A program made the position numbers and the translations under genes. From positions 141,864 to 205,863 of IMG/VR virus record IMGVR_UViG_3300002054_000021: a stretch of 64,000 nucleotides of DNA; one strand, given 5' to 3'. The stretch comes from a virus (lineage: Duplodnaviria; Heunggongvirae; Uroviricota; Caudoviricetes). The notes below the pieces were generated by a model. The model was given only the letters and a program-made list of their open reading frames with translations. It was not told where the DNA came from and ran no database searches. Shown one piece after another: positions 3,358 through 53,230 of this stretch (positions within the stretch are counted from its first letter, which is position 1; every line of letters starts with the position of its first letter).

Positions 3358-4002
3358 ATGAAGTATCTACGGATCATTCAAACAGAGTGCCAAGTAAGTG
3401 GCGGTATGGGCTGGGCTATAAAAGGCGCTGATATAGACCATCATGATTTTGCGGCGTCATTTCCTGATGATATGCGGTTAATTGCACACGATATTGTCGA
3501 GCACCCTAGCTTAGTTAATATAGGCTCTGTAGAGGACGAATTAGAGGCTTTAGGGGGTGCATGGAACACGCGCGGCAAATGGGGCGACTCTGTAACAGAT
3601 GAAGGCATTGCGGGAGACGTAGGAAATATGTTTAGTCAGTGTCCTGCAGGAGAGTTGAAGAAGGCCCCTAAAACGCGCGGGTTTTATGATGAAGACTTAT
3701 TTAAAATGATTATTAAGTTAGCTAAGAAGTATGCAAAGGATATGTGCGGATATACAAAACAAGCTTGGAAGAAATTTAAAAAGCAAGCTTTGCGGTGGAT
3801 GGGTTTAGGTTATGTTAAATCAGTCAAACGCTTTGGTGATCGATTCGTCAGTAATAATTTATTCAATTCAATAAAAGAAGAATTAGAAAGAGTTGTTCAA
3901 TACGCAATGCCTTATGAAGAGGTTAGTTTAGGCTACTCTTTCAAGAATGGTAGAGTAAAGGTTAGAGCCAGAATCTTTAACCCTTACGAGAATGAGTATT
4001 GA
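3358..4002 (+). CDS. hypothetical protein
   Basis: ORF track, SD AAAGGG. Confidence 0.75.
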   Translation: MKYLRIIQTECQVSGGMGWAIKGADIDHHDFAASFPDDMRLIAHDIVEHPSLVNIGSVEDELEALGGAWNTRGKWGDSVTDEGIAGDVGNMFSQCPAGELKKAPKTRGFYDEDLFKMIIKLAKKYAKDMCGYTKQAWKKFKKQALRWMGLGYVKSVKRFGDRFVSNNLFNSIKEELERVVQYAMPYEEVSLGYSFKNGRVKVRARIFNPYENEY

Positions 4003-4033
4003 CTTTTATTTATCAGTTGGATATACAATAATC

Positions 4034-4237: not shown

Positions 4238-4274
4238 AAAGTGAAATAATTATGACTACTCTAAAGGAAAAGAC

Positions 4275-4940
4275 ATGAAAAATTTAGTTGCAATGAATAG
4301 AATATCCTTTCCAGAATTTTCTGGAGTTATAGTCAATATGATGCCTTTTATTATGGGTGATAATAACACGCTACCAGACAGTATAAAAACATATGGAAAA
4401 ATTATTGATAGTTGCAATCTTCCTGATAGTGAAATTGGTAAGGTTGGTTATTTGACAGTAACAGAATCCATTGTCAGTGAAAACGAATCACAGAGGCGCG
4501 GCGGTGTTCATACGGAAGGCTTTAGCGGTGTTGGATGGGGTACTGGATGGGGTACTGGATGGGGCAGAGGTAAAACAAAGCAATCATTCGGAGGCTCTAC
4601 ATTTGGTGCAAGTAATGGTTATGATTTAGATGGTGGTCTATACATGGCAAACTCTATAGATGACACTTGCCAAGCTTGGGATATGCACGTTAAAGAAACT
4701 GGACATTTAGGCTGTCTCGCTCATTTAGGGTTGAAAGATGGTCATAAGATGGAAAAGAATCGGTTATACTGGATGCATGACAGAACCCCACATGAAGCGC
4801 TTCCCTTTGCAGGTGGTAAACGTCAATTTTTCAGGCTTGTTACTTCGGATGTTAGCGTTTGGTATGATAAGCATAATACTCCAAATCCACTAGGGGTTAA
4901 GCCTGCCTGTAAAATAATTTCATCTAATAAATTTCAATGA
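4275..4940 (+). CDS. putative 2OG-Fe(II) oxygenase-fold protein with GWGT repeats
   Basis: HTEG...HEALP...RQFFRL pattern; 12-bp tandem repeat at 4532-4567. Confidence 0.5.
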   Translation: MKNLVAMNRISFPEFSGVIVNMMPFIMGDNNTLPDSIKTYGKIIDSCNLPDSEIGKVGYLTVTESIVSENESQRRGGVHTEGFSGVGWGTGWGTGWGRGKTKQSFGGSTFGASNGYDLDGGLYMANSIDDTCQAWDMHVKETGHLGCLAHLGLKDGHKMEKNRLYWMHDRTPHEALPFAGGKRQFFRLVTSDVSVWYDKHNTPNPLGVKPACKIISSNKFQ

Positions 4941-5347
4941 ACTTTAACTACGCAGGAAATAGAGGATTCGGAATGTCTTACGCTATAGGTGGCTTAGGCA
5001 TGGTTGGCGGATTTTTGGGTCAGATGGCGAATCGATCTCGCGGTTACAAAATAAATGAATATGGAAATATTTCTTATTTCAGACCTATAGGCCCGATTAC
5101 AAAAGAAGAGCACGACTCTATAGAATTAGTTAAGAGAGCAAAAGCTTTTCGCAAGATCGAAGCTAAGCACTACTCTAAGCCGTTCTCATATCCGCCCCAT
5201 CCAGAGGAGACGCGACAACAAAGACGTGCGAGAGAAAGGCTTGAGGCAAAAATGGATTCAGGTCAATATCATAATCAGTCACAAAAGGGAATAAGAACCT
5301 TGACAAAATATGATAGATTTGGCAAAGTGATTAAGAAGGCTAGATGA
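4937..5347 (+). CDS. hypothetical basic protein
   Basis: ORF overlaps the upstream stop (ATGA). Confidence 0.65.
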   Translation: MNFNYAGNRGFGMSYAIGGLGMVGGFLGQMANRSRGYKINEYGNISYFRPIGPITKEEHDSIELVKRAKAFRKIEAKHYSKPFSYPPHPEETRQQRRARERLEAKMDSGQYHNQSQKGIRTLTKYDRFGKVIKKAR

Positions 5348-5853: not shown

Positions 5854-6033
5854 ATGTCTGTTAATGTGACAAGGCCGATCAATGGAATATCTATTAACGG
5901 CAATGAGTTTTTACTGGACGATTCTGGCGATCCTATGATTTTTGATAATCAAGAAAGCACTAAATCCTTTCTAATGGAAAATGGTATAGATAAAGATGAT
6001 TTAGATTGTTTTAATTATCCCGAACATAAATAA
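5854..6033 (+). CDS. hypothetical protein
   Basis: ATG 5854 with SD AAAGGG, in frame with ORF 5782..6033. Confidence 0.65.
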   Translation: MSVNVTRPINGISINGNEFLLDDSGDPMIFDNQESTKSFLMENGIDKDDLDCFNYPEHK

Positions 6034-6104
6034 TTTATTTTTCCTGTTGACTCCCTAATTCTTTTGTGCAAGTTATGACTTAACAAAACGAAAAGGGAAT
6101 CGAC

Positions 6105-6668
6105 ATGCAACAATTTAATCCTGCAATACACCAGACAGTAACCATCGGTTATTGGGCAGACGAGCCATATGATAGCTCATTCTATCCTATAGCTTCATTT
6201 AATACTCACATGGTGTCAATGTTATTAGATACATATACGTCAATGGTTAAAGAGTGCTATAAGACCGCAAAGCGCGACATTGGAGACAATGTTGTTATGC
6301 TTGCACATCATGACTTAGAAAACAAAATCAATCCTGATATCGATTCTCGCAATGAGATTGAATTGACATTTGATGATTTGCCACCCTTAAACCTATCTAA
6401 AGCAGATTGCGAAATGCTTGTCGCTAGGCTTGATGAATATCCGCACCCAGATGATGATGAATGGGCACGTTATCACCTTGAGTCTGGAGAGCATATAGAT
6501 TGTAATTTTTACTTAAAGGAAAATAATGACGGCTCTTTTGAGCAGACCATAACAGCATATCGAGTCGTTGATAACGAGACTTTGACTACTAAAGATGAAG
6601 ATATGTTCAAAGTTAAATTCAAATTAAATCAAGATGGAAAAACTTACACTGTTTTGGGGTTTGACTAA
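6105..6668 (+). CDS. hypothetical protein
   Basis: ORF track, own promoter and SD. Confidence 0.75.
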   Translation: MQQFNPAIHQTVTIGYWADEPYDSSFYPIASFNTHMVSMLLDTYTSMVKECYKTAKRDIGDNVVMLAHHDLENKINPDIDSRNEIELTFDDLPPLNLSKADCEMLVARLDEYPHPDDDEWARYHLESGEHIDCNFYLKENNDGSFEQTITAYRVVDNETLTTKDEDMFKVKFKLNQDGKTYTVLGFD

Positions 6669-7626: not shown

Positions 7627-7703
7627 CCGCGCTTAGCTCAGTTGGTAGAGCACTCAGTAGATTAACTGAGGGGTCTGAGTTTCGAGTCCTTGAGCGCGGA
7701 CCA
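7627..7703 (+). tRNA. atypical tRNA / tRNA-like RNA with 8-nt anticodon loop (undetermined isotype)
   Basis: Acceptor CCGCGCT/AGCGCGG-A-CCA; D arm GCTC/GAGC; stem CTCAG/CTGAG with loop TAGATTAA; T loop TTCGAGT with T53 mismatch. Confidence 0.75.
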
Positions 7704-44785: not shown

Positions 44786-45574
44786 TTATTGCATCTTGTA
44801 TTTTATGATTTCAAAAGCATCCTCATATGTCTCATCATCATTTTCCGAGGTAAGATGACTTGACATCATTTCACTTACACTGAAGGGTATGGGTTTAGAG
44901 ACAATTTTAGATCTCACGATATTATCTTCTATAGTATACATCTCCTTGTAAGAGGCAACCCCATAAAAGTACATATCTTCTATAGCGTCATGTATACTTT
45001 CAACATCAAGTTCTGAAATTATCATTGACCTCTTTTCTTCATCTTTGACACCTTGAAGAGATTTGTGCCCAAATATACCATGAGCCTTAGAGCTTACAGC
45101 GTTTTTCATAGCATCATTCTGTCTCCAAACAAGCTTATTATATAACTCTATTAGATTTGGTACTTGACAAACTCTAGTATCAAAGTGAGGGACCTTAGAC
45201 CCTCCCTTCTCAGATATATCATTTATTTTTCTGGAAAAATTTGATGAAGCAGATCCAGCTAAAACGGTTGCCATTTTCATAACTCTACCACCAAACATAA
45301 AATTTTCTATAGGTTTACCATTTTTCCAAAATAGAGATATCTCATCTGATTGAGTAAATGCAAAGTCGGCGTGTGTTTTTTCAACCAAGTACTCTGCAGT
45401 GCTTATCATAGAATTAGAAATATCTTTATCAAATGGCTTATCAAATGATTTGGTATAACTAGAGAACTTCCTGCCATCTACACGAGCGTAAACAGGCAAG
45501 AAGTTCATCAGTTTAATATTATTAATAGATTCGTATGATTTCATACGATCACCTAAATTATCTTGAGTCATCAT
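44786..45574 (-). CDS. thg1: tRNA-His guanylyltransferase-like 3'-5' polymerase (Thg1/TLP)
   Basis: LGDRMKSYE, ARVDGRKFS, FTQSDEIS, FDTR, WRQNDA. Confidence 0.95.
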   Translation of the reverse strand: MMTQDNLGDRMKSYESINNIKLMNFLPVYARVDGRKFSSYTKSFDKPFDKDISNSMISTAEYLVEKTHADFAFTQSDEISLFWKNGKPIENFMFGGRVMKMATVLAGSASSNFSRKINDISEKGGSKVPHFDTRVCQVPNLIELYNKLVWRQNDAMKNAVSSKAHGIFGHKSLQGVKDEEKRSMIISELDVESIHDAIEDMYFYGVASYKEMYTIEDNIVRSKIVSKPIPFSVSEMMSSHLTSENDDETYEDAFEIIKYKMQ

Positions 45575-45585
45575 GTATCCTCAGA

Positions 45586-46800
45586 TTAACCTTTTACATT
45601 AACCACCTGCTTCAAGGTATGCATTACTTCTATTAAATCAGACTGAGCCGCAATAACTGCATCTATATTTTTATATGCAGATGGACTTTCATCAAGGATG
45701 GCCTTATCCTTTCTGCACTCAATCCCTTCAGTGGCAGCTATATGTTCCTCAATAGATATCTTCTTTTTAGCCTCGGTTCTAGACATTACTCTACCAGCTC
45801 CATGTGAGCATGAGCAGAAAGAGTCTGGATTTCCAAGCCCCCTAACAATTAAACTTTTAGCTCCCATAGAGGCAGGTATAATTCCTAAGTCGTCTTTCCG
45901 AGCACGAACAGCGCCTTTGCGAGTAACGTACACGTCCTCTCCAAAGTGATTTTCCATTTCAGCGTAATTATGATGACAATTGACGGCAACTTTACCTAGT
46001 TTAAATGGCCTCAAATGCTTCCTCAAAACCCTGAGTACGCTATCCATCATAACATTCCTGTTTTCACGAGCGTAATTCTGAGACCACTGCATAGCTTCCC
46101 AGTAATCATTAAAAGACCCTGAGCCTTCAACAAGATATGCTAAGTCTGCGTCAGGCAAGTTAATGAAATGTCTCTCCATTTCTTTCTTAGCCTGCTTGAT
46201 GAATGTTTGTCCTATCATATTGCCAATACCTCTAGACCCGCTATGAAGCATGACCCAAACGATATTATTTTCATCTAAGCATACTTCAATAAAGTGATTT
46301 CCTCCGCCTAAAGATCCAAGTTGCTTTGAAGCATCTTTTTTTGCAAGGTGTGGAAACTTGTCTTTTATCTTAGCAAGACCAGCATCTAAAGATGCGTACT
46401 TCGTTAGGACGGAATTTGGAACTACGTCCCAAGAACCCTTAACAGACCTCCCTCTTACAGTAACAAATCCATGAGGAACAGCCCTCTCTATGTCTGACCT
46501 GATCTCCTTTAGTGAATCTGGCAAGTCGTCAGCTGTAAGAGTTGTTTGCACGGCATGCATACCGCAACCAAGGTCAACGCCAACAGCGGCTGGTATAATG
46601 GCCTTTTTTGTGGCTATTACAGAACCAACCGTAGACCCTCTACCAAAGTGACCATCTGGCATGACCGCGATGTGCTTGTGTATAAATGGCAAGCTTGCTG
46701 TCTTATGCAGTTGCGCATACGTGTTTTCATCAAAATGAACACCTTTATCCCAAGCTTTAACAGGAAAGGAGCCTTCTTCTTTGTAATACGTATATGTCAT
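45586..46800 (-). CDS. rtcB: RtcB RNA ligase
   Basis: MPDGH, GVDLGCG, GGGNHFIE, HSGSRG, HHNY, RKGA, HGAGR, DESPSAYK. Confidence 0.98.
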   Translation of the reverse strand: MTYTYYKEEGSFPVKAWDKGVHFDENTYAQLHKTASLPFIHKHIAVMPDGHFGRGSTVGSVIATKKAIIPAAVGVDLGCGMHAVQTTLTADDLPDSLKEIRSDIERAVPHGFVTVRGRSVKGSWDVVPNSVLTKYASLDAGLAKIKDKFPHLAKKDASKQLGSLGGGNHFIEVCLDENNIVWVMLHSGSRGIGNMIGQTFIKQAKKEMERHFINLPDADLAYLVEGSGSFNDYWEAMQWSQNYARENRNVMMDSVLRVLRKHLRPFKLGKVAVNCHHNYAEMENHFGEDVYVTRKGAVRARKDDLGIIPASMGAKSLIVRGLGNPDSFCSCSHGAGRVMSRTEAKKKISIEEHIAATEGIECRKDKAILDESPSAYKNIDAVIAAQSDLIEVMHTLKQVVNVKG

Positions 46801-46803
46801 TGC

Positions 46804-47007
46804 TCAATCCTTTCTTATTTCATCTAAATAATTTAGAGCTTTTATTGCTCTTTCACATTCTCTTAACCTAGAGTTTTCTCTAGATAAGTAATTAATTCTC
46901 TCTTTAACCTTGCTAATAATATTAGATGCAAGCGGTATTTTCTGAAGATAAGCTTCAGCTTGCATTGCAGTTAACATACTTATAAGTTCTTCGTCAGACA
47001 TATTCAT
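46804..47007 (-). CDS. hypothetical protein
   Basis: ORF track. Confidence 0.55.
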   Translation of the reverse strand: MNMSDEELISMLTAMQAEAYLQKIPLASNIISKVKERINYLSRENSRLRECERAIKALNYLDEIRKD

Positions 47008-47016
47008 ATTTTATAT

Positions 47017-47697
47017 TTATATATAATCGTCGTCAAGTCTTATTTTAGTTTTTTCTATATCCAGTAAAGTTAAATGACCTTTACTTTTGTGAGCGCCAGT
47101 ATCTACAAAGAGTACGTTGCCGACCACGACGACATTAATTCTTGGCGTATGTCCGCAAAAAACTTTTCCTATATTCTTTATAAACTTTTCCTTCCTTTCA
47201 TTGTTTATAACAGATCGACCCCAAAGCATGAAGTCCTCATTATGTCTTGCAGTGACATTATTCCAGTCTCTAGGAGGATCTGTGTGACATATTCCTATAG
47301 AATCCTCTCCATCACCTATAGTTATAGAGTAAGGCAGTCTACGAGCCATTTCAGCAGCCTTATTAAGCCTATCCTCAGGAGCTGATAGAGACCACTCGCC
47401 GCCATTAGAAAGCCACACGTTTCTGTACTCCTTATCTCTGCCTATAATGCTCTTAACTAACATATCTTCATGGTTTCCCTTCACAGCAAAAAACCAATCT
47501 TGATATATTAATTCAAGACAACTTAAGGAGTGAGGACCTCTGTCGATTAAGTCTCCGACAGAAAATATCCTATCCTTTTCTTTATCGAACTGAACAGAGT
47601 TCATGCATTCAAATAATTGCGCAATTTCACCATGAATATCTCCACACACAAAATCTCTGCCTTTTTGATTGAATTCAAATTTATCATTCCTTAACAT
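47017..47697 (-). CDS. metallophosphoesterase (PphA/NinI-like)
   Basis: GDIHG, GDLIDRG, GNHE, GHT, DTG. Confidence 0.95.
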   Translation of the reverse strand: MLRNDKFEFNQKGRDFVCGDIHGEIAQLFECMNSVQFDKEKDRIFSVGDLIDRGPHSLSCLELIYQDWFFAVKGNHEDMLVKSIIGRDKEYRNVWLSNGGEWSLSAPEDRLNKAAEMARRLPYSITIGDGEDSIGICHTDPPRDWNNVTARHNEDFMLWGRSVINNERKEKFIKNIGKVFCGHTPRINVVVVGNVLFVDTGAHKSKGHLTLLDIEKTKIRLDDDYI

Positions 47698-47792
47698 TTT
47701 CTTGACTTTTCCTTAATTTGTGATATATTATAACAATACTGATCGCGGAATTGGCGTTCCCATCAGCACTAAACCTTATAGGAGGATCAGCA

Positions 47793-48530
47793 ATGAAAAT
47801 TAATAAAACTATAGTATACAAAACCACTAACCTTGTCAATGGTAAATACTATATTGGCACACACAGGTGCGGAAAACAACCTTATTGCAAGTCTGGAAGA
47901 TGTAGGTATTTAGGTTCTGGAATATTGCTTCAGGATGCCGTAAAAAAATACGGCAGAGATAAATTTATAAGAGAAACTCTCTTTGAGTTCGATTTTTATG
48001 AGGACGCGATAACTAAAGAAGAAGAATTAGTTACAAGGGAATTAATAATTGATAACGATTGCTACAATATACATTTAGGTGGAGGATATAATGAGGGCTA
48101 CGATAAAGATAAATTAGAATTGTTTAGGAATAACTCCTTAGGCGAAAACAACCCTATGTTTGGTAAAAGGCATTCCCAAAAAACAAAAGATTTAATTAGT
48201 AGAATTATGACAGATATGAATAAGGATAAAAATTATACCCATCCATCAAAAGGAAAGAGAAGAGGAGATTTGTCTGAGAGAAACAGAATTCCTACAAAAT
48301 TTATGAATAATGGAATTATTCAAAAGAAGATTAGAATAGAAGATATTGCCTATATGGAGACTTGTGGTTTTTCTCTAGGAATGCTTGATAGTAAGAGTAA
48401 AAAAGGAAAGCCTTTTGAAAAAGTTAAGTGTGAATATTGCGGAATAGAAAAACCAAAGAATTCTATTTGGCGACATAAAATTAAATGTGAAAAAGGGCCA
48501 CCGAAGCAGCCCTTTATAACAAGAATTTAA
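47793..48530 (+). mobile_element. GIY-YIG (Seg-like) homing endonuclease with NUMOD3
   Basis: IVYKTTNLVNGKYYIG, YLGSG, YN...GG, NPMFGKRHSQKTK; ATG 47793 after GGAGG. Confidence 0.9.
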
Positions 48531-48537
48531 ATTAACT

Positions 48538-50031
48538 TTAAGCTGAAATTACAGAGTACCTTTCAGAGTTAATCACATCTTCCATCATTTCTAAAGGAGT
48601 CTTTTGAACAACCTTAGAGATCACTTTTTCAACAACCTCTCCATCTTCAATTACTTGCTCAACAGTTTCCTCTATACGAGTGTCATTGAATACCGTTGAC
48701 ATTAATCTAGTGCTAAATCCACCGACAAGAGTTGCTTTTCTGTCGCCTGCATCAGCATGTGAGACAGAATCGCTTCCAGCATTGAGATTCCAGAAAATAA
48801 CCCTAGGCATTTCATATCCTGCGTTTTGATATCTAGTTGACATCATATTCATGAATGACTGGTCGGGATTACTTGCACATCTATCGAACTGCATATCAGA
48901 GAATATAACAACTTTTGTTGGCATATCTTCTGCAGGAACCGAACCATCTAAAGCTGTCTGTAAGATTAACTTAAAGACGGCTTCAATATCAGTATTCATT
49001 CCGACGCGAGAGTTTCTCATCAGTGAAGCAGACTCTGTAAAGGTTCTATCACCAATATCGATTAACTGAGGATCTCGATTAAATGAAATAAAGTGATTTT
49101 TAAAAGCTCCTTTAAGTCTCTGAGATAGATACACACCCATAGATATAGCTACGTCCATAGGAGTAATTATTCCAGATATTGTGGTCCAAGTCATAGATGC
49201 AGACGTATCAACAACAGAGATAACATTTTCATCCTTAGCCACAACGTCATTTGGAAGAGCCTTCCACATGGCGTTAATCATATTATCCTTGACTTTTCCA
49301 GACTTTTGCATGCGCATTACATCATGAGGGAATAAGTCCTTACCATTCATCTCATTATCTAAAACATACTTACCAAATCTATCTTCGTCATTTCTTGAGA
49401 AAGCAGCTGTATATCTAGACATGGCCACAGAAGGAACTTTACTGTAGTCAATATCTGACCATTCTGCGTCACACATTTTAGTTTCAACAACTTTTGATGA
49501 CTTAGCAAGAAGCTTCCTAAAGCTCTTAGGATCTAACTTTAGAGCCTTTCTAATTTTGTGGGCATAAGATCTATGCTTCCCAGATAATCTAGGGCACCAC
49601 TTTGCAGCAAGCGCGTTACCTTCTTTTAGCGCGGTTGCATAAAAATATATAGCGTCCGCCTCAAGAGGAGTATTAAATAAAGACAGCACATCATCCCATC
49701 TACCATACTCTGGTATATGCTGGATTAAATGAGCTGGAAATTTACCATTCTGAGCAGCGAGGTTCATTATGCCTTGGAAAGAGTTTCTCTCACCAGAACC
49801 TTTTCTAATATCTCTCAACCAAAACAGTATGCGTAAGGCATCAGTTGGATTGCTGTCATATGCCGAAACAAAGCTCTGATACTTACCAGACTTAAATCCA
49901 GTCTTTCTTTGAGAAGGAACCTTATAGAAAAAATCCAACCTAGTGTCAGTAGTTGACACAGACGCAGGCATGCCGTTTTGTGTGACGGTTTGATTTTCTT
50001 TAGCCTTCATAGCTTTTACTAGTGCATTCAT
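48538..50031 (-). CDS. TROVE/Ro60-related protein with vWA domain (DUF2828-type)
   Basis: RDIRKGSGER, EYGRWDD, AAKWCPR, VPSVAM, VDTSASM (MIDAS), SDMQFD, IFWNL. Confidence 0.85.
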   Translation of the reverse strand: MNALVKAMKAKENQTVTQNGMPASVSTTDTRLDFFYKVPSQRKTGFKSGKYQSFVSAYDSNPTDALRILFWLRDIRKGSGERNSFQGIMNLAAQNGKFPAHLIQHIPEYGRWDDVLSLFNTPLEADAIYFYATALKEGNALAAKWCPRLSGKHRSYAHKIRKALKLDPKSFRKLLAKSSKVVETKMCDAEWSDIDYSKVPSVAMSRYTAAFSRNDEDRFGKYVLDNEMNGKDLFPHDVMRMQKSGKVKDNMINAMWKALPNDVVAKDENVISVVDTSASMTWTTISGIITPMDVAISMGVYLSQRLKGAFKNHFISFNRDPQLIDIGDRTFTESASLMRNSRVGMNTDIEAVFKLILQTALDGSVPAEDMPTKVVIFSDMQFDRCASNPDQSFMNMMSTRYQNAGYEMPRVIFWNLNAGSDSVSHADAGDRKATLVGGFSTRLMSTVFNDTRIEETVEQVIEDGEVVEKVISKVVQKTPLEMMEDVINSERYSVISA

Positions 50032-50060
50032 AACTCTCTCCTTATTGATGTTATTTTAAA

Positions 50061-50187
50061 TACAGATTGAATTTTAATTTCGTAGTCTGATTTGTAGTCA
50101 GATGCCTAACCATTTGGCTTATCTCCCTATTGGGAAATATCGGATTCGAACCGATAATCACTTAATGTGAATTGCTGAAATCAATCT
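50061..50187 (-). ncRNA. array unit 5 (promoter-distal): circularly permuted tRNA-like RNA opened at the variable region
   Basis: AGATTGA-TTTCAGCAA / hairpin / T arm ATCGG-TTCGAAT-CCGAT / acceptor ATTTCCC-AATA-GGGAGAT / D arm / arm TCTGA-CTACAAA-TCAGA / TCAATCT-GTA. Confidence 0.8.
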
Positions 50188-50219
50188 TTAATTTATAATA
50201 ATATTTCATATAAATATAT

Positions 50220-50349
50220 TACAGTATCTGTTTTAGTTTCTAGCGCTCTACCACTGAGCTAACTCCCCGTAGAATGTTGGGGAGTGTCGGATTCGAACCA
50301 ACGACCTCTCGTTTCATAGACGAACGAAATAATTTGCTGAAAAGATACT
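50220..50349 (-). ncRNA. array unit 4: circularly permuted tRNA-like RNA opened at 26/27
   Basis: AGTATCT-TTTCAGCAA; arm TTCGT-CTATGAA-ACGAG; T arm GTTGG-TTCGAAT-CCGAC; ACTCCCC-10nt-GGGGAGT; D arm GCTC/GAGC; AGATACT-GTA. Confidence 0.85.
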
Positions 50350-50372
50350 TCAAATTTATTCATAATTTTAAA

Positions 50373-50502
50373 TACAGCTTCTGTTTTAATTTCTAAGCGC
50401 TCTACCACTAAGCTATCCCCGCATATTATTGGAGCGGGGAGCAGGAATCGAACCTGCGTCTCTTCCGTGACATGGAATGAAATAATTTGCTGAAAAGAAG
50501 CT
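50373..50502 (-). ncRNA. array unit 3: circularly permuted tRNA-like RNA, Gly-like acceptor with encoded CCA
   Basis: AGCTTCT-TTTCAGCAA; TTCC-ATGTCAC-GGAA; GCAGG-TTCGATT-CCTGC; TCCCCGC-T-CCA-ATAATAT-GCGGGGA; D arm; AGAAGCT-GTA. Confidence 0.85.
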
Positions 50503-50530
50503 TTAATTCAATAACAATAATTCCTTTTTT

Positions 50531-50626
50531 TGTAGGCTCAACGTTAATTTTAAACTCAGGGTTTGAACCTGACTTTTCGAGTATTGATCGAAAATTTAAC
50601 CATTTTGGTTTTGCTGAAATGAACCT
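50531..50626 (-). ncRNA. array unit 2: tRNA-like D/anticodon/T arms with the acceptor replaced by the array stem
   Basis: AGGTTCA-TTTCAGCAA; AACC/GGTT; TTTTCGA-TCAATAC-TCGAAAA; TCAGG-TTCAAAC-CCTGA; TGAGCCT. Confidence 0.7.
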
Positions 50627-50647
50627 TCTTAATAATATTTAAAGAGA

Positions 50648-50709
50648 TACAGTAAGAGGTTTAATCTTTTTTTACAAACAAAAATTAGATAATTTGCTGA
50701 ATTCTTACT
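50648..50709 (-). ncRNA. array unit 1 (promoter-proximal): minimal unit without tRNA body
   Basis: AGTAAGA-ATTCAGCAAATT-hairpin-TCTTACT-GTA. Confidence 0.7.
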
Positions 50710-50729
50710 TTAATCTCAAATTCTGAATA

Positions 50730-50758
50730 ACAATAGCAAAATTTGAAGCTTATGTCAA
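50730..50758 (-). promoter_or_regulatory. promoter for the RNA array and TROVE gene
   Basis: TTGACA-17-TATTGT with extended -10 TG. Confidence 0.7.
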
Positions 50759-50776
50759 CATGTTTTTTTAAAAAAA

Positions 50777-51379
50777 TTACTTTATTGCGTCTTTTCTGTC
50801 CTCATCAGAGAAAGTTAAATCAGAAACAGACCCTGTAGATGCATATGCTAAAGTTTTAGCTCCCCTTGACCTCATGACATCCTTATAATTACCTTTACTC
50901 ATATTTAGTGTCTGATTTACATTTATGCCAACGCTGTTACTAGTTTCGAAGGCGTTAAAATCAGCACCTATAAAAGAGACCCCATAGTTACTTTTCTCAA
51001 AACCAGATATTATAGCCTTTGCCGACGCATTATTATATTCTTTACTATTATTCTCGCCACCATCAGTTATAATTATTATATCTGCAGACTTTCTTTTTTT
51101 CTTATTGACTAAATCACCTAAAAAGCCGATTGCGTCATATAGAGGTGTCATCGCTCTTGGTCTGAACTCATCACAAGATATAGATTTCCACTCTGAAGCT
51201 TTTACCTTTCGCCTAACTATGTCAATAGATTGACTATCGAACACAACGGTGGTAATTTTCATCTTATGAGGTTTTTTACCCTTTGAAAGCTCATCAACGT
51301 ATGCGTTTACAGAGCCTATTGTTTCATCCCATCTGGTTCCCATAGATCCAGATCTATCTATAAGTATATAGCAGTGCAT
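50777..51379 (-). CDS. vWA domain protein
   Basis: LIDRSGSM, TPLYDAIG, IITDGGENNS, FIGA. Confidence 0.92.
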   Translation of the reverse strand: MHCYILIDRSGSMGTRWDETIGSVNAYVDELSKGKKPHKMKITTVVFDSQSIDIVRRKVKASEWKSISCDEFRPRAMTPLYDAIGFLGDLVNKKKRKSADIIIITDGGENNSKEYNNASAKAIISGFEKSNYGVSFIGADFNAFETSNSVGINVNQTLNMSKGNYKDVMRSRGAKTLAYASTGSVSDLTFSDEDRKDAIK

Positions 51380-51400
51380 TATATATTCCCCTTAATATTT

Positions 51401-51496
51401 TGGTGTGGACAGAAAAGCCGCCTATTCTCTTTTCTACACGCGAGTATTCAATTCGCTGCTCTTTCTAGTTGCCTAAAGACTATGAGCTACATCCAC
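51401..51496 (-). tRNA. non-canonical tRNA-like RNA, anticodon GAA (Phe-like), expanded D and T loops
   Basis: GTGGATG/TGTCCAC-A-CCA; GCTC/GAGC with 22-nt loop; GCGAA-TTGAATA-CTCGC; GAAAAG/CTTTTC arm without TTC. Confidence 0.7.
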
Positions 51497-51505
51497 GTAA
51501 AACTT

Positions 51506-51589
51506 TGGTGTGAAGTGGGGGCCGACTACGCCTCCCGACACGCGAGTATTCAATTCGCTGCTCTTTAATAGTCACTGAGCTAACTTCAC
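51506..51589 (-). tRNA. non-canonical tRNA-like RNA, anticodon GAA (Phe-like)
   Basis: GTGAAGT/ACTTCAC-A-CCA; 13-nt D loop; same 29-nt anticodon region as its neighbour; 10-nt T loop without TTC. Confidence 0.7.
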
Positions 51590-51679
51590 ATAAAAACAAA
51601 TTAATTTAACTACAAAGTAGCTCCCTTAACTTGACTTATTAATGACACATTAAAATACATAAGTCAACAACTTTATTCA

Positions 51680-52393
51680 TTATTTTTCAAAAAAATATGA
51701 ATTAATCTCTAAAAGTCTATCTAAGCCTATGGCTATTTCATAAACCTTCATATCTTCGGAAAAATCTGTTCTTATAGAGCAGGACGCGACTTCCATCCAC
51801 TTACCGTTAAACATTAGCTCTATATCCTTAGTGCTCTCTGCGTATGACGGCGGCTTTGAGTCCTGTATCCTAACCTCTGAATTTGATAGTGAAGATAACA
51901 GATCTGCGATTTTATTTATTGTCATGTCGCGATAATCTGCCATTGTTGTTTCAGAGTATATACATTGAAATTCTAACTGATAAAACTCATTAAATCTAAG
52001 CTTTGAAGGAGAGGCTCCGTCAAGCACCTCTCTTCTAAAAGACTTGCCCGATTGCCACACACAAATAGGAGGAGAAAACCTCTTTCCTTTTCGCATCAAA
52101 TTACGAGCATATTGATAACTGGCAGGAGTTGTCTCAGCTCTTAAAACTGCTTCGCATTCGCCATAATTATGGTTGGTCACAAAAACATCATTGTCAGTAT
52201 AATTTTCTGAAATGTAAGACCTAGGTATTAAAATTGGTCCTTCCACTCTGTGAAATGAAAACCCCCTATTTGCACTAAGTAAAAGCTCCTTAACCTCAAG
52301 ACTTATCTGCGAGATAAAATTGTCTCGTAAATTCACCTCTCTCTCATTCCAGAATCTCAAAGATCCAGTTTCACTATATAGCGCTTCGCTCAT
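51680..52393 (-). CDS. minimal class II aminoacyl-tRNA synthetase catalytic core (GlyRS-alpha2/ProRS-like), no anticodon-binding domain
   Basis: LRAET, motif 2 GKSFRRE...EFYQLEFQ, WMEVASCSIR, motif 3 IGLDRL. Confidence 0.8.
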   Translation of the reverse strand: MSEALYSETGSLRFWNEREVNLRDNFISQISLEVKELLLSANRGFSFHRVEGPILIPRSYISENYTDNDVFVTNHNYGECEAVLRAETTPASYQYARNLMRKGKRFSPPICVWQSGKSFRREVLDGASPSKLRFNEFYQLEFQCIYSETTMADYRDMTINKIADLLSSLSNSEVRIQDSKPPSYAESTKDIELMFNGKWMEVASCSIRTDFSEDMKVYEIAIGLDRLLEINSYFFEK

Positions 52394-52410
52394 TTTAATA
52401 CTTTCTTTAT

Positions 52411-52914
52411 TTAGACCTTAGTTAGATTTGATCTTCTCATTTTATTCTTAACAATATGATCACTTGAGTGACTTGCAGCAAAAGCATATGGCTTTACCTT
52501 AGGCGCAAACCCCATTTGCCCAGTAACATAACCTATAGCCTCTTTAACTGCAACACTAGATGCATGCTTGTCGTCGCCGTTAATATCAACATGGACCTCA
52601 AAGTTTCTATCTCCAACATGATCTATTAAAGCAAGGGCAACCTCAGTCACCATGAAAACTTCATTCATGAGTCTTTGCTTTATATTGCCATAATCATCAA
52701 TAACTCTCTTTTCAATAAAAATTATAGAAGCCCCATGCTTAGAATCTTTGTGAAGCCAAACAGATGTAGAGTACTTAGCCTCTTTCCAAACTCTTCCAGA
52801 TTTTTTATCCTTTCTTGAGAATACCTGACTATCACACCCAACATAAACGCTAGACGATTCAGAAGATTCTTTTATAGCTTTTATAGCTTTATCGTATTTT
52901 TTATCATCAGTCAT
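52411..52914 (-). CDS. RNase H-like YkuK-family protein
   Basis: VYVGCDSQ, RLMNEV, EVHVDIN, KPYAFAAS..SD. Confidence 0.85.
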   Translation of the reverse strand: MTDDKKYDKAIKAIKESSESSSVYVGCDSQVFSRKDKKSGRVWKEAKYSTSVWLHKDSKHGASIIFIEKRVIDDYGNIKQRLMNEVFMVTEVALALIDHVGDRNFEVHVDINGDDKHASSVAVKEAIGYVTGQMGFAPKVKPYAFAASHSSDHIVKNKMRRSNLTKV

Positions 52915-53230
52915 AATTAATCATCCCGAAAAGATGAACTCTAAAATTAAAAGGAATAGGTATATAGCTCCAACTATAATAATTGATGCTATTGAGGTAG
53001 ACTTTATATAGTCTATCTCATCCTTACATTCCCCATACAATTTGTCAAATGCTTTATTTATTATTTTCATAATTTAAAAATTTTTGCGGTAGGTCGGCTA
53101 TCTCCTACATTTCTCGATCTTTCATTTCTTACTAAAACTCAACCACTCGACCCCCTACAAAATGAATGGTGCGTGAGACCTTACTCACTTCGCAAAAACC
53201 CAGCCTTAGGCTGTACCCCTAACTTTATTT

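What the first reader, a model, noticed from the sequence alone, without database searches (positions are those of the whole stretch)
50061..50709. Five-unit RNA array with a covarying terminal stem and TTCAGCAA motif forms the leader of a TROVE/Ro60-like gene
On the minus strand, between a promoter (50758-50730) and the TROVE/vWA gene (ATG 50031), five units repeat one frame: a 7-bp stem, then (T/A)TTCAGCAA, a variable insert, and the complementary 7 nt followed by GTA (ACA in one unit). The stems differ in sequence but stay paired: AGTAAGA/TCTTACT, AGGTTCA/TGAGCCT, AGCTTCT/AGAAGCT, AGTATCT/AGATACT, AGATTGA/TCAATCT. That is covariation within one locus. Established: Ro60 binds a conserved terminal stem of Y RNAs, and bacterial YrlA RNAs carry a tRNA-like domain and are encoded beside Ro60 and rtcB. 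Inference: this is a divergent Ro60-like RNP system in which one protein-binding stem is grafted onto several different tRNA-derived cargoes. The motif does not match the canonical Y RNA motif as I know it.
Basis: partly seen in the sequence, partly recalled or inferred. Interest (0 to 1): 0.95.

Follow-up and report, generated by a model that had tools for sequence, protein, structure and literature searches.

The report
Phage Ro60-like protein with CAGCAA-handle RNAs
Five small RNA genes in front of a phage gene for a ring-shaped, Ro60-like RNA-binding protein share one conserved "handle" joined to different tRNA-like bodies. The same RNA-protein pairing recurs in hundreds of unrelated phages and closely resembles the unexplained Class I RNAs of social amoebae, so it is probably an undescribed branch of the Ro60/Y-RNA particle.

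Summary
Observation confirmed. On the minus strand, 50709-50064, five units follow one promoter-like site and precede the 497-aa gene (ATG 50031). Each unit reads A|AG, a 7-bp stem, WUUCAGCAA, an insert, an A-rich ...AAC element, the complementary 7 nt, then GUA (ACA in unit 2).

Unit 1 has no cargo. Unit 2 holds a tRNA-like cloverleaf in normal order. Units 3-5 hold circularly permuted tRNA bodies, the YrlA topology.

The protein is Pfam DUF2828+DUF7788, not TROVE, but its model matches Ro60 over its full length (TM 0.62, E 1e-9).

A covariance model of the handle found 78 units in 86 phage loci and 62 in 80 bacterial and archaeal genome records. All lie on the gene's strand, mostly next to the gene. 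It also found units in Listeria, Felix O1-type (including Bas63) and mycobacterial phages that were not used to build it.

No Rfam family reaches threshold. Rfam's Dictyostelium Class I RNA model picks these same units as its top hits (up to 36 bits; cut-off 41.5).

Best reading: Y-RNA-like partners of a Ro60-like protein. Binding, processing and function are all inferred.

This scan has already noted the same RNA family on other DNA, in at least 88 genomes. I found no published description of it.

The parts
50730..50758 (-). Sigma-70-type promoter-like site: TTGACA, 17 nt, TATTGT, with TG before the -10
   Evidence: Best consensus match in 48400-51500, 10 of 12. Unit 1 starts 20 nt downstream. 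A consensus match only; no transcript data.
50651..50709 (-). Unit 1: minimal handle RNA (59 nt). Stem AGTAAGA/TCTTACT, ATTCAGCAA, AT-rich hairpin, TAAACC. No tRNA part.
   Evidence: Scores 53.4 bits with model R1, of whose seed alignment it is one of 44 rows. Rfam Dicty_Class_I_RNA matches it end to end at 19.6 bits, below the cut-off.
50534..50626 (-). Unit 2: handle (AGGTTCA/TGAGCCT, one G-U) enclosing a cloverleaf in normal order: D-like hairpin, 7-bp hairpin with a 7-nt loop, T arm with a TTCAAAC loop. Followed by ACA.
   Evidence: (MFE z -2.9).
50376..50502 (-). Unit 3: handle (AGCTTCT/AGAAGCT) enclosing a circularly permuted tRNA body opened at position 26/27. Order: anticodon-like hairpin (loop AUGUCAC, GUC), T arm, 7-nt acceptor 3' strand, U-CCA, 7-nt linker, acceptor 5' strand, D arm.
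   Evidence: Rfam YrlA positions 28-81, 27.9 bits (cut-off 69). After computational rotation ARAGORN reads tRNA-Asp(GUC) for some junctions.
50223..50349 (-). Unit 4: paralogue of unit 3 (AGTATCT/AGATACT). Permuted tRNA body whose hairpin has a non-canonical 9-nt loop. The acceptor is closed by a 10-nt linker with no CCA.
   Evidence: Rfam YrlA positions 24-84, 29.8 bits.
50064..50187 (-). Unit 5: handle (AGATTGA/TCAATCT) enclosing a tRNA body permuted in the variable region. Order: extra hairpin, T arm, acceptor closed by AAUA, D arm, canonical anticodon arm (loop CUACAAA, anticodon ACA).
   Evidence: (z -3.4). After rotation ARAGORN calls tRNA-Cys(ACA) in 401 of 432 junction choices.
48538..50031 (-). 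497-aa Ro60-fold protein (Pfam DUF2828 + DUF7788; phrog_850 'RNA-binding protein'): helical-repeat ring plus vWA domain. The invariant residues include D275, S277, S279, T347 and D379, which look like a MIDAS site.
   Evidence: Reading these residues as MIDAS rests on my knowledge of vWA domains.
44786..47697 (-). Context, downstream on the same strand: metallophosphoesterase (47697-47017), RtcB RNA ligase (46800-45586), Thg1-like 3'-5' polymerase (45574-44786). A GIY-YIG homing endonuclease lies on the + strand at 47751-48530.
   Evidence: Pfam hits. RtcB lies within 4-5 kb of the homologous gene in only 12 of 169 other loci, so it is context and not a fixed part.
50777..52914 (-). Context, upstream on the same strand: 200-aa vWA protein (51379-50777), stand-alone class II aaRS catalytic-core-like protein (52393-51680), PF04308 RNase H-like protein (52914-52411).
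   Evidence: A PF04308 gene also lies next to the homologous gene in KVP40, Vibrio phage F86 and L012.

Best explanation
The five units are genes for small structured RNAs of the Y-RNA type. They are transcribed from one promoter together with the gene for their protein partner, the 497-aa Ro60-fold DUF2828/DUF7788 protein.

Each RNA has a common handle:
- the 5' and 3' ends pair in a 7-bp helix that starts (A)AG and ends CUGU;
- the helix opens into an asymmetric internal loop, with WUUCAGCAA on the 5' strand and an A-rich ...AAC on the 3' strand.

Inferred steps:
1. The AT-rich spacers are removed from the primary transcript.
2. The ring protein binds the handle, as Ro60 binds the terminal stem plus internal-loop motif of Y RNAs, and thereby protects and defines the RNA ends.
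3. The variable inserts (none, a cloverleaf, or permuted tRNA bodies with a T-loop/D-loop elbow) act as interchangeable modules. These either present tRNA-shaped decoys or recruit tRNA-handling enzymes, in the service of tRNA/RNA repair or counter-defence during infection.
4. Because the array forms the leader of the protein's own mRNA, binding may also feed back on expression of the gene.

What is shown: the sequence architecture, the compensated stems, the fold of the protein, and family-wide linkage and strand bias.
What is inferred: transcription, processing, binding, and the function of the cargo.
For: 1. Architecture and compensatory stem changes in the window.

2. The three closest relatives of the protein (56, 53 and 43% identity) carry 2-3 units of the same design directly upstream of the gene, with different stems and cargoes.

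3. A stem-plus-motif scanner run on 80 IMG/VR loci holding a homologue gave 110 hits on the gene strand, 21 on the other strand and about 15 per strand in shuffles. When end features not used in the scan were also required (G at stem position 2, CYG at the end), the counts were 86 v 0 in IMG/VR and 33 v 1 in genome records.

4. Covariance model R1, built from 44 minimal units, gave 78 hits at E<=0.01 in 86 phage loci and 62 in 80 genome-contig loci. All are on the gene strand and most abut the gene. It also finds units in phages not used to build it: Listeria WIL-1, Felixounavirus AYO145A and Bas63, and Mycobacterium phage Archie.

5. The protein has the Ro60 fold over its full length. Solved Ro60-RNA complexes, including phage phiLo Ro60-Yrl2, bind a 5'-3' stem next to an internal loop that carries a short conserved motif (PMC12135203; PMC4201824).

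6. U3 and U4, and long units in other loci, match Rfam YrlA. Two matches in L063 span the full model.

7. In Cronobacter phage S13 the same handle occurs as a capped arm inserted at position 26/27 of normal-order tRNA-like genes. This shows the handle is a portable module.

8. The Felixounavirus orthologue bas63_0130 (gp130) is reported to counter the Ppl defence system (PMC11482910; orthology).
Against: - There is no expression or end-mapping evidence for this phage.
- No binding experiment exists for any member of the DUF2828 family with these RNAs.
- The handle motif differs from the GNCGAA/CGAA motif of proven Ro60 ligands, and the protein does not match Pfam TROVE at E<=0.01.
- RNA-repair neighbours are not conserved across the family. 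RtcB was near the gene in 0 of 80 IMG/VR loci and 12 of 89 others. The repair-platform part of the mechanism therefore rests on this island and a minority of loci.
- Gene-RNA linkage alone would also fit a processing signal or a regulatory site recognised by another factor.
Confidence: 0.7

Rival explanations
1. Units 3-5 are circularly permuted tRNA genes, or split-tRNA precursors. The handle is a processing signal that is cut out. The neighbouring RtcB ligase joins the ends and RNase P and 3' trimming open the acceptor linker, giving functional tRNAs. A variant of this idea is a nicked two-piece tRNA held together by the handle.
For: - The 3' half precedes the 5' half, with 7-bp acceptor stems. 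U3 encodes U-CCA followed by a 7-nt leader. U3 and U5 keep 7-nt anticodon-type loops with U33 (GUC and ACA).
- RtcB and a Thg1-like enzyme lie 3-5 kb downstream.
- ARAGORN finds 29 tRNAs for 17 amino acids in this genome, with none for Asp, Ala or Tyr. U3 carries GUC, the Asp anticodon.
- M. smegmatis YrlA is cut by RNase P and receives CCA (PMC4201824).
Against: - U1 and U2 have nothing to mature, and 50-70-nt units without any tRNA part are the commonest form in the family.
- The handle is a plain 7-bp helix plus internal loop, not a bulge-helix-bulge, and none of the nine neighbouring ORFs scanned against Pfam matched a splicing-endonuclease family.
- U4 has a 9-nt loop and U5 has an A34 anticodon duplicating Cys. 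U3 has U73 and C2, not what I recall as the Asp identity elements G73 and G2-C71.
- S13 carries the handle as a capped arm in uninterrupted tRNA-like genes.
- RtcB is absent from most loci.
- The genome is only 93% complete, so missing tRNAs may lie in the unassembled part.
Confidence: 0.1
2. The array is mainly a cis-acting leader. The handles are operator sites through which the Ro-like protein, or another factor, controls stability or translation of the downstream mRNA. They are not stand-alone RNAs.
For: - The array lies between the promoter and the gene with no terminator-like site in between.
- In many loci a unit ends 20-50 nt before the gene.
- In KVP40 and Vibrio phage F86 a 40-nt handle look-alike (GACATT, TTACAGCA..., AATGTC) encloses the Shine-Dalgarno sequence and the start codon of the homologous gene.
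Against: - In other phages the units lie downstream of the gene or scattered among tRNA genes (Felixounavirus, Bas63, S13, KVP40 595-841).
- Elaborate tRNA-like cargo with compensated acceptor, T and D stems has no obvious role in an operator.
- The KVP40 leader helix is weak on its own (-3.5 kcal/mol, z -0.4).
- This reading is compatible with the best explanation as an added layer.
Confidence: 0.08
3. The handle is recognised by some other factor, such as a host RNase or processing enzyme or another phage protein. It travels with DUF2828 genes only because both belong to the tRNA/small-RNA region of large phages.
For: No direct binding data exist. DUF2828 genes often sit in or next to tRNA arrays. 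In Dictyostelium the look-alike Class I RNA binds an RRM protein, Rnp1A (PMC7919456).
Against: - The linkage is tight and strand-specific across very different phages and genome records. It holds in loci without nearby tRNA genes, for example Mycobacterium phage Archie and Listeria WIL-1.
- The only constant neighbour of the RNA is this gene.
- The fold of the protein is that of a proven stem-plus-motif RNA binder.
Confidence: 0.08

Closest known systems
Bacterial and phage Ro60 (Rsr) with YrlA-type Y RNAs (Rfam RF02553; Chen et al. 2014, PMC4201824)
   Same: - Small RNAs are encoded beside a ring-shaped Ro60-fold protein gene, on the same strand.
- The 5' and 3' ends pair in a stem next to a conserved single-stranded motif.
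- The effector domain is a tRNA mimic with the order T arm, closed acceptor, D arm, as in units 3-5.
- There are several RNAs per locus.
- RtcB is linked, as in the Salmonella rsr-yrlBA-rtcBA operon.
   Different: - The protein is Pfam DUF2828+DUF7788, not TROVE, with about 13-14% identity to Ro60 in the structural alignments.
- The motif is WUUCAGCAA rather than GNCGAA(N)G.
- Rfam YrlA scores are 28-39 bits against a cut-off of 69.
- Cargo is highly variable. Minimal units have none, and the tRNA body can be opened at different points.
- The ends are conserved as WAG...CUGU.
Thermus phage phiLo Ro60 with Yrl1/Yrl2 (PMC12135203; PDB 9KOP, 9L5Y)
   Same: A phage-encoded Ro60-fold protein has Y-like RNAs directly upstream of its gene. 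The RNA is a 5'-3' stem flanking an internal loop with a short motif that matters for binding. The authors propose a role against host defence or in hijacking host RNA enzymes.
   Different: phiLo Ro60 uses the canonical CGAA motif. Its binding has been shown by EMSA and cryo-EM, and PNPase recruitment has been shown in vitro. None of this has been tested for the family described here.
Dictyostelid Class I RNAs (Rfam RF01414; Kjellin et al. 2021, PMC7919456)
   Same: Class I RNAs start AAG and have a 6-bp terminal stem that covaries. The motif CCUUACAGCAA sits next to the 5' strand, the middle is variable, the RNA ends CUGU and the length is about 60 nt. The phage units have WAG, a 7-bp covarying stem, NUWCAGCAA, a variable middle, CUGU or CUGA, and minimal units of 50-70 nt. 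The Rfam model finds the phage units end to end as its top hits in whole phage records (up to 36.1 bits, E 9e-7 per record).
   Different: All scores are below the gathering cut-off of 41.5. Class I RNAs are eukaryotic, have their own DUSE promoter, are reported as unique to Dictyostelia, and their known direct binder is the RRM protein Rnp1A. Whether Dictyostelia encode a DUF2828 protein could not be checked here.
Bas63 gp130 (bas63_0130), counter of the Ppl defence system (PhageMaP preprint, PMC11482910)
   Same: It is a member of the same protein family. The Felixounavirus gene is about 30% identical to the window protein over 92% of its length, and the Bas63 copy is 94.9% identical in DNA to the AYO145A copy. 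The authors noted the Ro60-like fold and guessed that some neighbouring 'tRNA genes' might be Y RNAs.
   Different: The partner RNAs were not identified there. Model R1 places three units in gaps of the Bas63 tRNA array, not on annotated tRNAs. Whether the window protein counters any defence system is unknown.
Circularly permuted tRNA genes of the red alga Cyanidioschyzon merolae (Soma et al. 2007; from my own knowledge, not read here)
   Same: The 3' half lies upstream of the 5' half in one transcript, and the acceptor ends are joined by a linker.
   Different: Those genes mature through a bulge-helix-bulge cut, circularisation and RNase P/Z processing into functional tRNAs. Here the joint is a conserved handle that also occurs without any tRNA part, and no bulge-helix-bulge is present.

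Membership tests
YrlA / Y RNA-like (Rfam RF02553) | Reaches the Rfam gathering score (69 bits) | tested here: not met
   U4 scores 29.8 bits (model positions 24-84 of 114) and U3 27.9 bits (positions 28-81). The best relatives score 38.9-39.2 bits.
YrlA / Y RNA-like (Rfam RF02553) | tRNA-like domain in the order T arm, closed acceptor stem, D arm | tested here: met
   Met in U3, U4 and U5. Not met in U1. U2 has a body in normal order without an acceptor stem of its own.
YrlA / Y RNA-like (Rfam RF02553) | GNCGAA(N0-1)G motif near the 5' end, the proposed Ro60/Rsr contact (PMC4201824) | tested here: not met
   The sequence next to the 5' stem strand is WUUCAGCAA in all five units.
YrlA / Y RNA-like (Rfam RF02553) | Encoded within 4 kb of a Ro60 orthologue, on the same strand | tested here: met
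   The array ends 33 nt before the gene on the same strand. The partner is Ro60-like by fold only.
Ro60 / TROVE proteins | Ring of helical repeats plus a C-terminal vWA domain with a MIDAS site | tested here: met
   AF2 pLDDT 87.5, pTM 0.86. Foldseek match to 1yvr/2i91 with TM 0.62 and E 1e-9 over about 540 aligned columns. Swiss-Prot RO60 of five species at E 6e-10 to 4e-9. D275, S277, S279, T347 and D379 are invariant in 32 homologues.
Ro60 / TROVE proteins | Sequence match to the Pfam TROVE domain | tested here: not met
   The only hits are PF11443 DUF2828 (7e-29) and PF25043 DUF7788 (1.7e-47); there is no TROVE hit at E<=0.01. phmmer against PDB sequences finds nothing.
Ro60 / TROVE proteins | Binds Y RNA stems and misfolded RNA ends | not testable with these tools
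   Needs EMSA, RIP or a solved structure.
Dictyostelid Class I RNA (Rfam RF01414) | Reaches the gathering score (41.5 bits) | tested here: not met
   U1 scores 19.6 bits. Relatives score 23-24 bits and up to 36.1, 35.4 and 33.8 bits.
Dictyostelid Class I RNA (Rfam RF01414) | AAG start, short covarying terminal stem, an 11-nt motif ending in CAGCAA next to the 5' strand, and a CUGU end | tested here: met
   Met at sequence level. All five units read A|AG...; four of five end CUGU. Across 125 gene-strand units in 86 related phage loci the start is AAG in 54 and UAG in 31, and the end is CUGU in 54 and CUGA in 26. The real RNA ends have not been mapped.
Dictyostelid Class I RNA (Rfam RF01414) | Dictyostelid host with a DUSE promoter | tested here: not met
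   This is a phage record with a sigma-70-type promoter-like site.
Permuted tRNA genes (C. merolae type) | 3' half upstream of the 5' half, with acceptor ends joined by a linker | tested here: met
   Met in U3-U5.
Permuted tRNA genes (C. merolae type) | Bulge-helix-bulge at the joined termini and maturation to a functional tRNA | tested here: inconclusive
   No bulge-helix-bulge is visible; the joint is a 7-bp helix plus an asymmetric loop. Maturation cannot be tested here.

The most novel reading that the evidence does not exclude
The CAGCAA-handle RNAs of phages and prokaryotes and the Class I RNAs of dictyostelid social amoebae are one RNA family, related by descent or by transfer together with a DUF2828-type protein. 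If so, the unexplained and reportedly Dictyostelia-specific Class I RNAs would be the amoebal branch of a Ro60-like ribonucleoprotein, and a DUF2828/DUF7788 protein would be their missing partner.
Probability: 0.2. Interest if true: 0.92.

Novelty: new variant of a known kind. Interest (0 to 1): 0.8.

Why it matters
Ro60/Y-RNA particles are known from animals and from about 5% of bacteria, and their functions are still debated. This locus belongs to a much larger sister system that has not been described. A Ro60-fold protein family is present in about 700 sequenced phages and many genome records, and it travels with its own RNA family, which has a different handle and interchangeable tRNA-like cargo.

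- It names concrete RNA partners for a protein already reported to defeat a bacterial defence system (Bas63 gp130 against Ppl), so that mechanism can now be tested.
- It explains many odd 'tRNA-OTHER', pseudo-tRNA and long 'tRNA-Ser' annotations in phage genomes.
- It offers a testable origin and partner for the Dictyostelium Class I RNAs.

This window shows the design well: five units in one transcript cover the whole range of cargo, from none to three kinds of rearranged tRNA.

Tried and rejected
- Megablast of the locus against 50,697 phage records gave no match.
- The search for related loci with the single protein gave nothing. The alignment query worked.
- phmmer against PDB sequences gave nothing useful.
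- NCBIfam has no family for the protein.
- Sequencing runs: no RNA holder was listed. The only DNA holders come from one algae-metagenome sample, which is probably the source.
- Conserved protein neighbours: tblastn with the window's VWA, aaRS-like, PF04308, DHH, metallophosphoesterase, RtcB and Thg1-like proteins found almost none in 80 IMG/VR loci. RtcB was found in 12 of 89 other loci. I therefore dropped the idea of a fixed multi-gene system.
- The two Rfam tRNA hits at 50131-50268 and 50278-50420 are chimeras. Each joins the 5' half of one unit to the 3' half of the next across a 79-86-nt 'insert'. I rejected them as intron-containing tRNAs because each 5' half pairs perfectly with the 3' half of its own unit.
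- A handle-like match over the RtcB start (46818-46758; 15.1 bits, E 0.18) has G in place of the invariant C of CAGCAA and one mismatched pair. I treat it as chance.
- A second inner helix (AUUUC/GAAAU) in U3 and U4 is not supported in U1, U2 or U5, and I did not pursue it.
- Whether Dictyostelium encodes a DUF2828 protein could not be settled. AlphaFold DB rows came back without organisms, the Atlas shows only eukaryotic (haptophyte) DUF2828 clusters, and the literature searches were silent.
- One literature query was malformed.
- Complex prediction was not used because it does not model protein-RNA pairs.
Full report
**What is in the sequence.** The window is part of a 208,360-bp IMG/VR phage record that is estimated 93% complete. 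On the minus strand, a sigma-70-type promoter-like site lies at 50758-50730. It reads TTGACA, 17 nt, TATTGT with an upstream TG, and it is the best match in the region. Five units follow it and end 33 nt before the ATG (50031) of a 497-aa ORF.

The units, stem to stem, are:

| Unit | Coordinates | Length |
|---|---|---|
| U1 | 50709-50651 | 59 nt |
| U2 | 50626-50534 | 93 nt |
| U3 | 50502-50376 | 127 nt |
| U4 | 50349-50223 | 127 nt |
| U5 | 50187-50064 | 124 nt |

They are separated by AT-rich spacers of 24-35 nt. Each unit is built the same way:
- a 7-nt strand that starts AG and is preceded by A;
- then ATTCAGCAA or TTTCAGCAA;
- then an insert;
- then an A-rich element that mostly ends in AAC (ATTAAAC / ATTAAAAC-like);
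- then the exact complement of the first strand (one G-U in U2);
- then GUA (ACA in U2).

No minus-strand terminator-like site separates the array from the gene. No credible ORF covers the array.

**More than chance.** WTTCAGCAA occurs 13 times on both strands of the whole genome. Five of these fall in this 650-nt stretch on one strand, where 0.012 is expected. Elsewhere, only 14% of looser motif matches have a 7-bp partner. U3 and U4 are clear paralogues. Their handle stems differ at two base pairs, and both changes are compensated. Their acceptor and T stems also differ while staying paired.

**The inserts.**
- U1 holds only an AT-rich hairpin.
- U2 holds a cloverleaf in normal order, with a D-like hairpin, a 7-bp hairpin and a T arm with a TTCAAAC loop. 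The handle stands where the acceptor stem would be.
- U3 and U4 hold a tRNA body opened between positions 26 and 27. The order is hairpin, T arm, acceptor 3' strand, linker, acceptor 5' strand, D arm.
- U3 has a 7-nt loop with U33 and GUC, and it encodes U-CCA before a 7-nt linker. U4 has a 9-nt loop and no CCA.
- U5 is opened in the variable region. It keeps a canonical anticodon arm (anticodon ACA) and closes the acceptor with AAUA.

The order T arm, closed acceptor, D arm is the topology of YrlA. Rfam's YrlA model matches U4 and U3 over its tRNA-like domain only, at 29.8 and 27.9 bits against a cut-off of 69.

Rfam's two tRNA hits here are chimeras that join the halves of neighbouring units. 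ARAGORN sees none of the units.

**The protein.** Pfam gives DUF2828 plus DUF7788 and no TROVE hit. PHROGs gives phrog_850, 'RNA-binding protein'. An AlphaFold2 model built on 32 homologues has pLDDT 87.5 and pTM 0.86. It matches Ro60 structures over the full length:
- 1yvr and 2i91, TM 0.62, E about 1e-9;
- D. radiodurans Rsr;
- Thermus phage phiLo Ro60, 9l5y and 9kop.

It also matches Swiss-Prot RO60 from five species. The residues D275, S277, S279, T347 and D379 are invariant among the homologues, as expected for a vWA MIDAS site. So are several basic residues in the helical part: R42, R73, R82, R111, K144 and R148, with K169 and R172 nearly invariant. 'Ro60-like' is therefore correct by fold. 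'TROVE' is not correct by sequence family.

**Linkage across genomes.** tblastn finds the protein in 696 phage records: Felix O1-type coliphages and Salmonella phages, KVP40-type vibriophages, and Listeria, Staphylococcus, Enterococcus, Bacillus, Campylobacter and mycobacterial phages. In the mycobacterial records it is annotated 'Ro-like RNA binding protein'.

The three closest relatives (56, 53 and 43% identity) each carry two or three units of the same design just upstream of the gene. Their stems and cargoes differ, and one is a permuted tRNA.

In 80 IMG/VR loci fetched with a protein profile:
- A simple scanner (a 7-bp stem, then NTWC[AC]GCA, with the partner strand within 280 nt) found 110 units on the gene strand, 21 on the other strand and about 15 per strand in shuffles.
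- The gene-strand units share end features that the scanner did not ask for. In the 86 phage loci scanned, the start is AAG in 54 and TAG in 31 of 125 units, and the end is CUGU in 54 and CUGA in 26. The opposite-strand hits show no such pattern.
- With these end features required, the counts are 86 v 0 in IMG/VR and 33 v 1 in genome records.

Covariance model R1 was built from 44 minimal units.
- It gave 78 hits at E<=0.01 in 86 phage loci.
- It gave 62 hits in 80 bacterial and archaeal genome records that played no part in building it.
- All 140 hits are on the gene strand, and most lie within a few hundred bases of the gene.
- In cultured phages not used for the model it finds three units upstream of the gene in Listeria phage WIL-1, three downstream in Felixounavirus AYO145A, three in Bas63 and one in Mycobacterium phage Archie.

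Protein neighbours are not conserved. RtcB lies near the gene in 0 of 80 and 12 of 89 loci, and the other genes of this island almost never do. The constant pair is the protein gene and the RNA.

**The handle is a portable module.** In Cronobacter phage S13, two genes annotated tRNA-Ser and tRNA-OTHER are tRNA-like RNAs in normal order. They carry the same handle as a capped arm between the D arm and the anticodon region, built as an A-rich strand, a capped helix, then UAUUCAGCA. This is the circular permutation of the open handle seen here. A third S13 unit is of the open, permuted kind. KVP40 has a 247-nt unit after a tRNA-Ser gene. It also has a 40-nt handle look-alike that encloses the Shine-Dalgarno sequence and start codon of the homologous gene, and this look-alike is conserved in Vibrio phage F86. 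That helix is weak on its own.

**How it most likely works.** Proven Ro60 ligands are RNAs whose 5' and 3' ends form a stem beside an internal loop with a short conserved motif:
- GGUCCGA in vertebrates;
- GNCGAA in bacteria;
- CGAA in phage phiLo, where mutating the motif weakens binding three- to four-fold and basic helices of the ring contact the RNA (PMC4201824; PMC12135203).

The units here have the same layout with a different motif, and they sit beside a protein of the same fold. I therefore read them as the Y-RNA-like partners of this protein.
- They are co-transcribed with its mRNA and released from the AT-rich spacers.
- They are bound at the handle.
- The tRNA-like inserts act as effector modules. 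These are either decoys for enzymes that recognise tRNA shape or tethers for tRNA-handling enzymes.

In this phage the RNP gene lies in a co-oriented island with RtcB, a Thg1-like polymerase, phosphoesterases and a class II aaRS-core-like protein. This points to tRNA repair or protection.

The one functional datum for the family concerns Bas63 gp130, which I confirmed to be the orthologue bas63_0130. It is reported to counter the Ppl defence system, and its authors guessed that Y RNAs might hide among the neighbouring tRNA genes (PMC11482910).

All steps after the sequence architecture, the protein fold and the linkage are inferences. I put 0.7 on the RNP pairing and much less on any particular function of the cargo.

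**Rivals.**
- Permuted tRNA precursors matured with RtcB. In favour are the CCA and leader of U3, the intact anticodon-type loops of U3 and U5, and the absence of tRNA-Asp among the 29 tRNAs ARAGORN finds in this genome. Against it are the cargo-free units that dominate the family, the absence of a bulge-helix-bulge, the non-canonical features of U4 and U5, and the capped handles of S13.
- A purely cis-acting leader. This fits the position of the array and the KVP40 look-alike. It does not fit units placed downstream of the gene or among tRNA genes elsewhere. It may be an added layer.
- Recognition by another factor. This cannot be excluded without binding data.

**Comparison with what is known.** No Rfam 15 family reaches its threshold on the units. 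Full-text searches for DUF2828, DUF7788, Ro-like or Ro60-like proteins, and phage YrlA found no description of this RNA family.

Membership in YrlA fails on the score and on the defining 5' motif. It passes on topology and on linkage.

The closest match in sequence design is unexpected: the Class I RNAs of dictyostelid amoebae. These start AAG and have a 6-bp covarying stem. CCUUACAGCAA lies next to the 5' strand, the middle is variable, the end is CUGU and the length is about 60 nt. They are reported as unique to Dictyostelia (PMC7919456).

Rfam's Class I model matched U1 end to end at 19.6 bits. Searched over 30 whole phage records, it gave best scores of 36.1, 35.4, 33.8 and 30.7 bits, with E down to 9e-7 per record (cut-off 41.5). 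By coordinates, nine of its ten best hits are the same units that R1 and the scanner place next to the DUF2828 gene.

The resemblance is therefore objective. Whether it reflects common descent depends on whether Dictyostelia have a DUF2828-type protein, which I could not check.

**Earlier notes of this scan.** The same RNA-protein pairing has been noted before on other DNA, in at least 88 genomes. Those notes include the Felix O1-type, Listeria, KVP40 and mycobacterial cases and the Class I resemblance. I re-tested these points independently here. One earlier report carries a later check that kept the observation (90/100) but gave its bold reading only 6/100. This made me keep the probability of the Dictyostelium homology reading low. 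Another first-reader note on this same stretch reads U3-U5 as permuted tRNA genes. I treat that as the main rival.

**Verdict.** The array is real and well beyond chance. The system is a new variant of the Ro60/Y-RNA kind, with a distinct protein family, a distinct handle and modular tRNA-derived cargo. As far as the available literature and Rfam show, it is undescribed. Binding, processing and function remain to be shown.

Noticed in passing
window 50131-50268 and 50278-50420 (-): Rfam's tRNA model reports two 'tRNAs' with 79-86-nt inserts. Each is a chimera of the 5' half of one permuted unit and the 3' half of the next. Automatic annotation of such arrays will produce false intron-containing or pseudo-tRNAs.
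   Followed up: yes
L001 (Vibrio phage KVP40, NC_005083) 3966-4005; L003 (Vibrio phage F86) 3964-4005: The 5' leader of the homologous gene contains a 40-nt handle look-alike (GACATT, TTACAGCA, ..., AATGTC). The Shine-Dalgarno sequence sits in its loop and the start codon in its 3' strand. This may be an autoregulatory site. The helix alone is weak (-3.5 kcal/mol).
   Followed up: partly
L002 (Cronobacter phage S13, NC_028773) 5899-6019, 6029-6141, 6157-6291: The annotated 'tRNA-Ser' (121 nt) and 'tRNA-OTHER' (113 nt) are normal-order tRNA-like RNAs with the CAGCA handle inserted as a capped arm between the D arm and the anticodon region. An unannotated open, permuted unit follows them.
   Followed up: partly
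L182 (Escherichia phage JohannRWettstein = Bas63, MZ501086) 4251-4324, 4418-4482, 4873-4947: Three handle units lie in gaps of the tRNA array just downstream of bas63_0130, the gene reported to counter the Ppl defence system. The third is partly overlapped by a small opposite-strand CDS annotation.
   Followed up: partly
L101 (Listeria phage WIL-1, NC_025440) 2644-2912: Three handle units lie directly upstream of the DUF2828 gene. The region is annotated with several tiny (66-81 nt) hypothetical CDSs, which are probably spurious. An RtcB gene lies 1.3 kb downstream of the DUF2828 gene.
   Followed up: partly
window 53081-53198 (-): A skipping-rope RNA (Rfam RF02924; 41.2 bits, cut-off 36.7) lies in the same co-oriented island, between the DHH-like and PF04308 genes.
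   Followed up: no
window 51680-52393 (-): A stand-alone 237-aa class II aminoacyl-tRNA-synthetase catalytic core has weak hits to GlyRS, PylS and the PheS-related 'SrmL' ligase and no anticodon-binding domain. It lies two genes upstream of the RNA array. It might act on the tRNA-like units.
   Followed up: no
window 47751-48530 (+): A GIY-YIG/NUMOD3 homing-endonuclease-like gene is inserted on the opposite strand between the Ro-like gene and the metallophosphoesterase gene.
   Followed up: no
window 7627-7703 (+): ARAGORN calls a tRNA with a 4-nt anticodon (gatt) and undetermined identity.
   Followed up: no
whole genome G000 (208 kb): ARAGORN finds 29 tRNAs covering 17 amino acids and none for Asp, Ala or Tyr. 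Unit 3 of the array carries a GUC (Asp) anticodon-type loop. The genome is 93% complete, so this may be coincidence.
   Followed up: partly
G000:C1:37456-37679 (+), outside the window: A 224-nt candidate unit (AGATATA, GTACAGCAA, ..., TATATCT) has the AG start and CT end but is followed by AAAT rather than GU. Its coding context was not checked.
   Followed up: no
window 46758-46818 (-): A weak handle-like match (15.1 bits, E 0.18) lies over the RtcB start codon. It has G in place of the invariant C of CAGCAA, so it is probably chance.
   Followed up: yes
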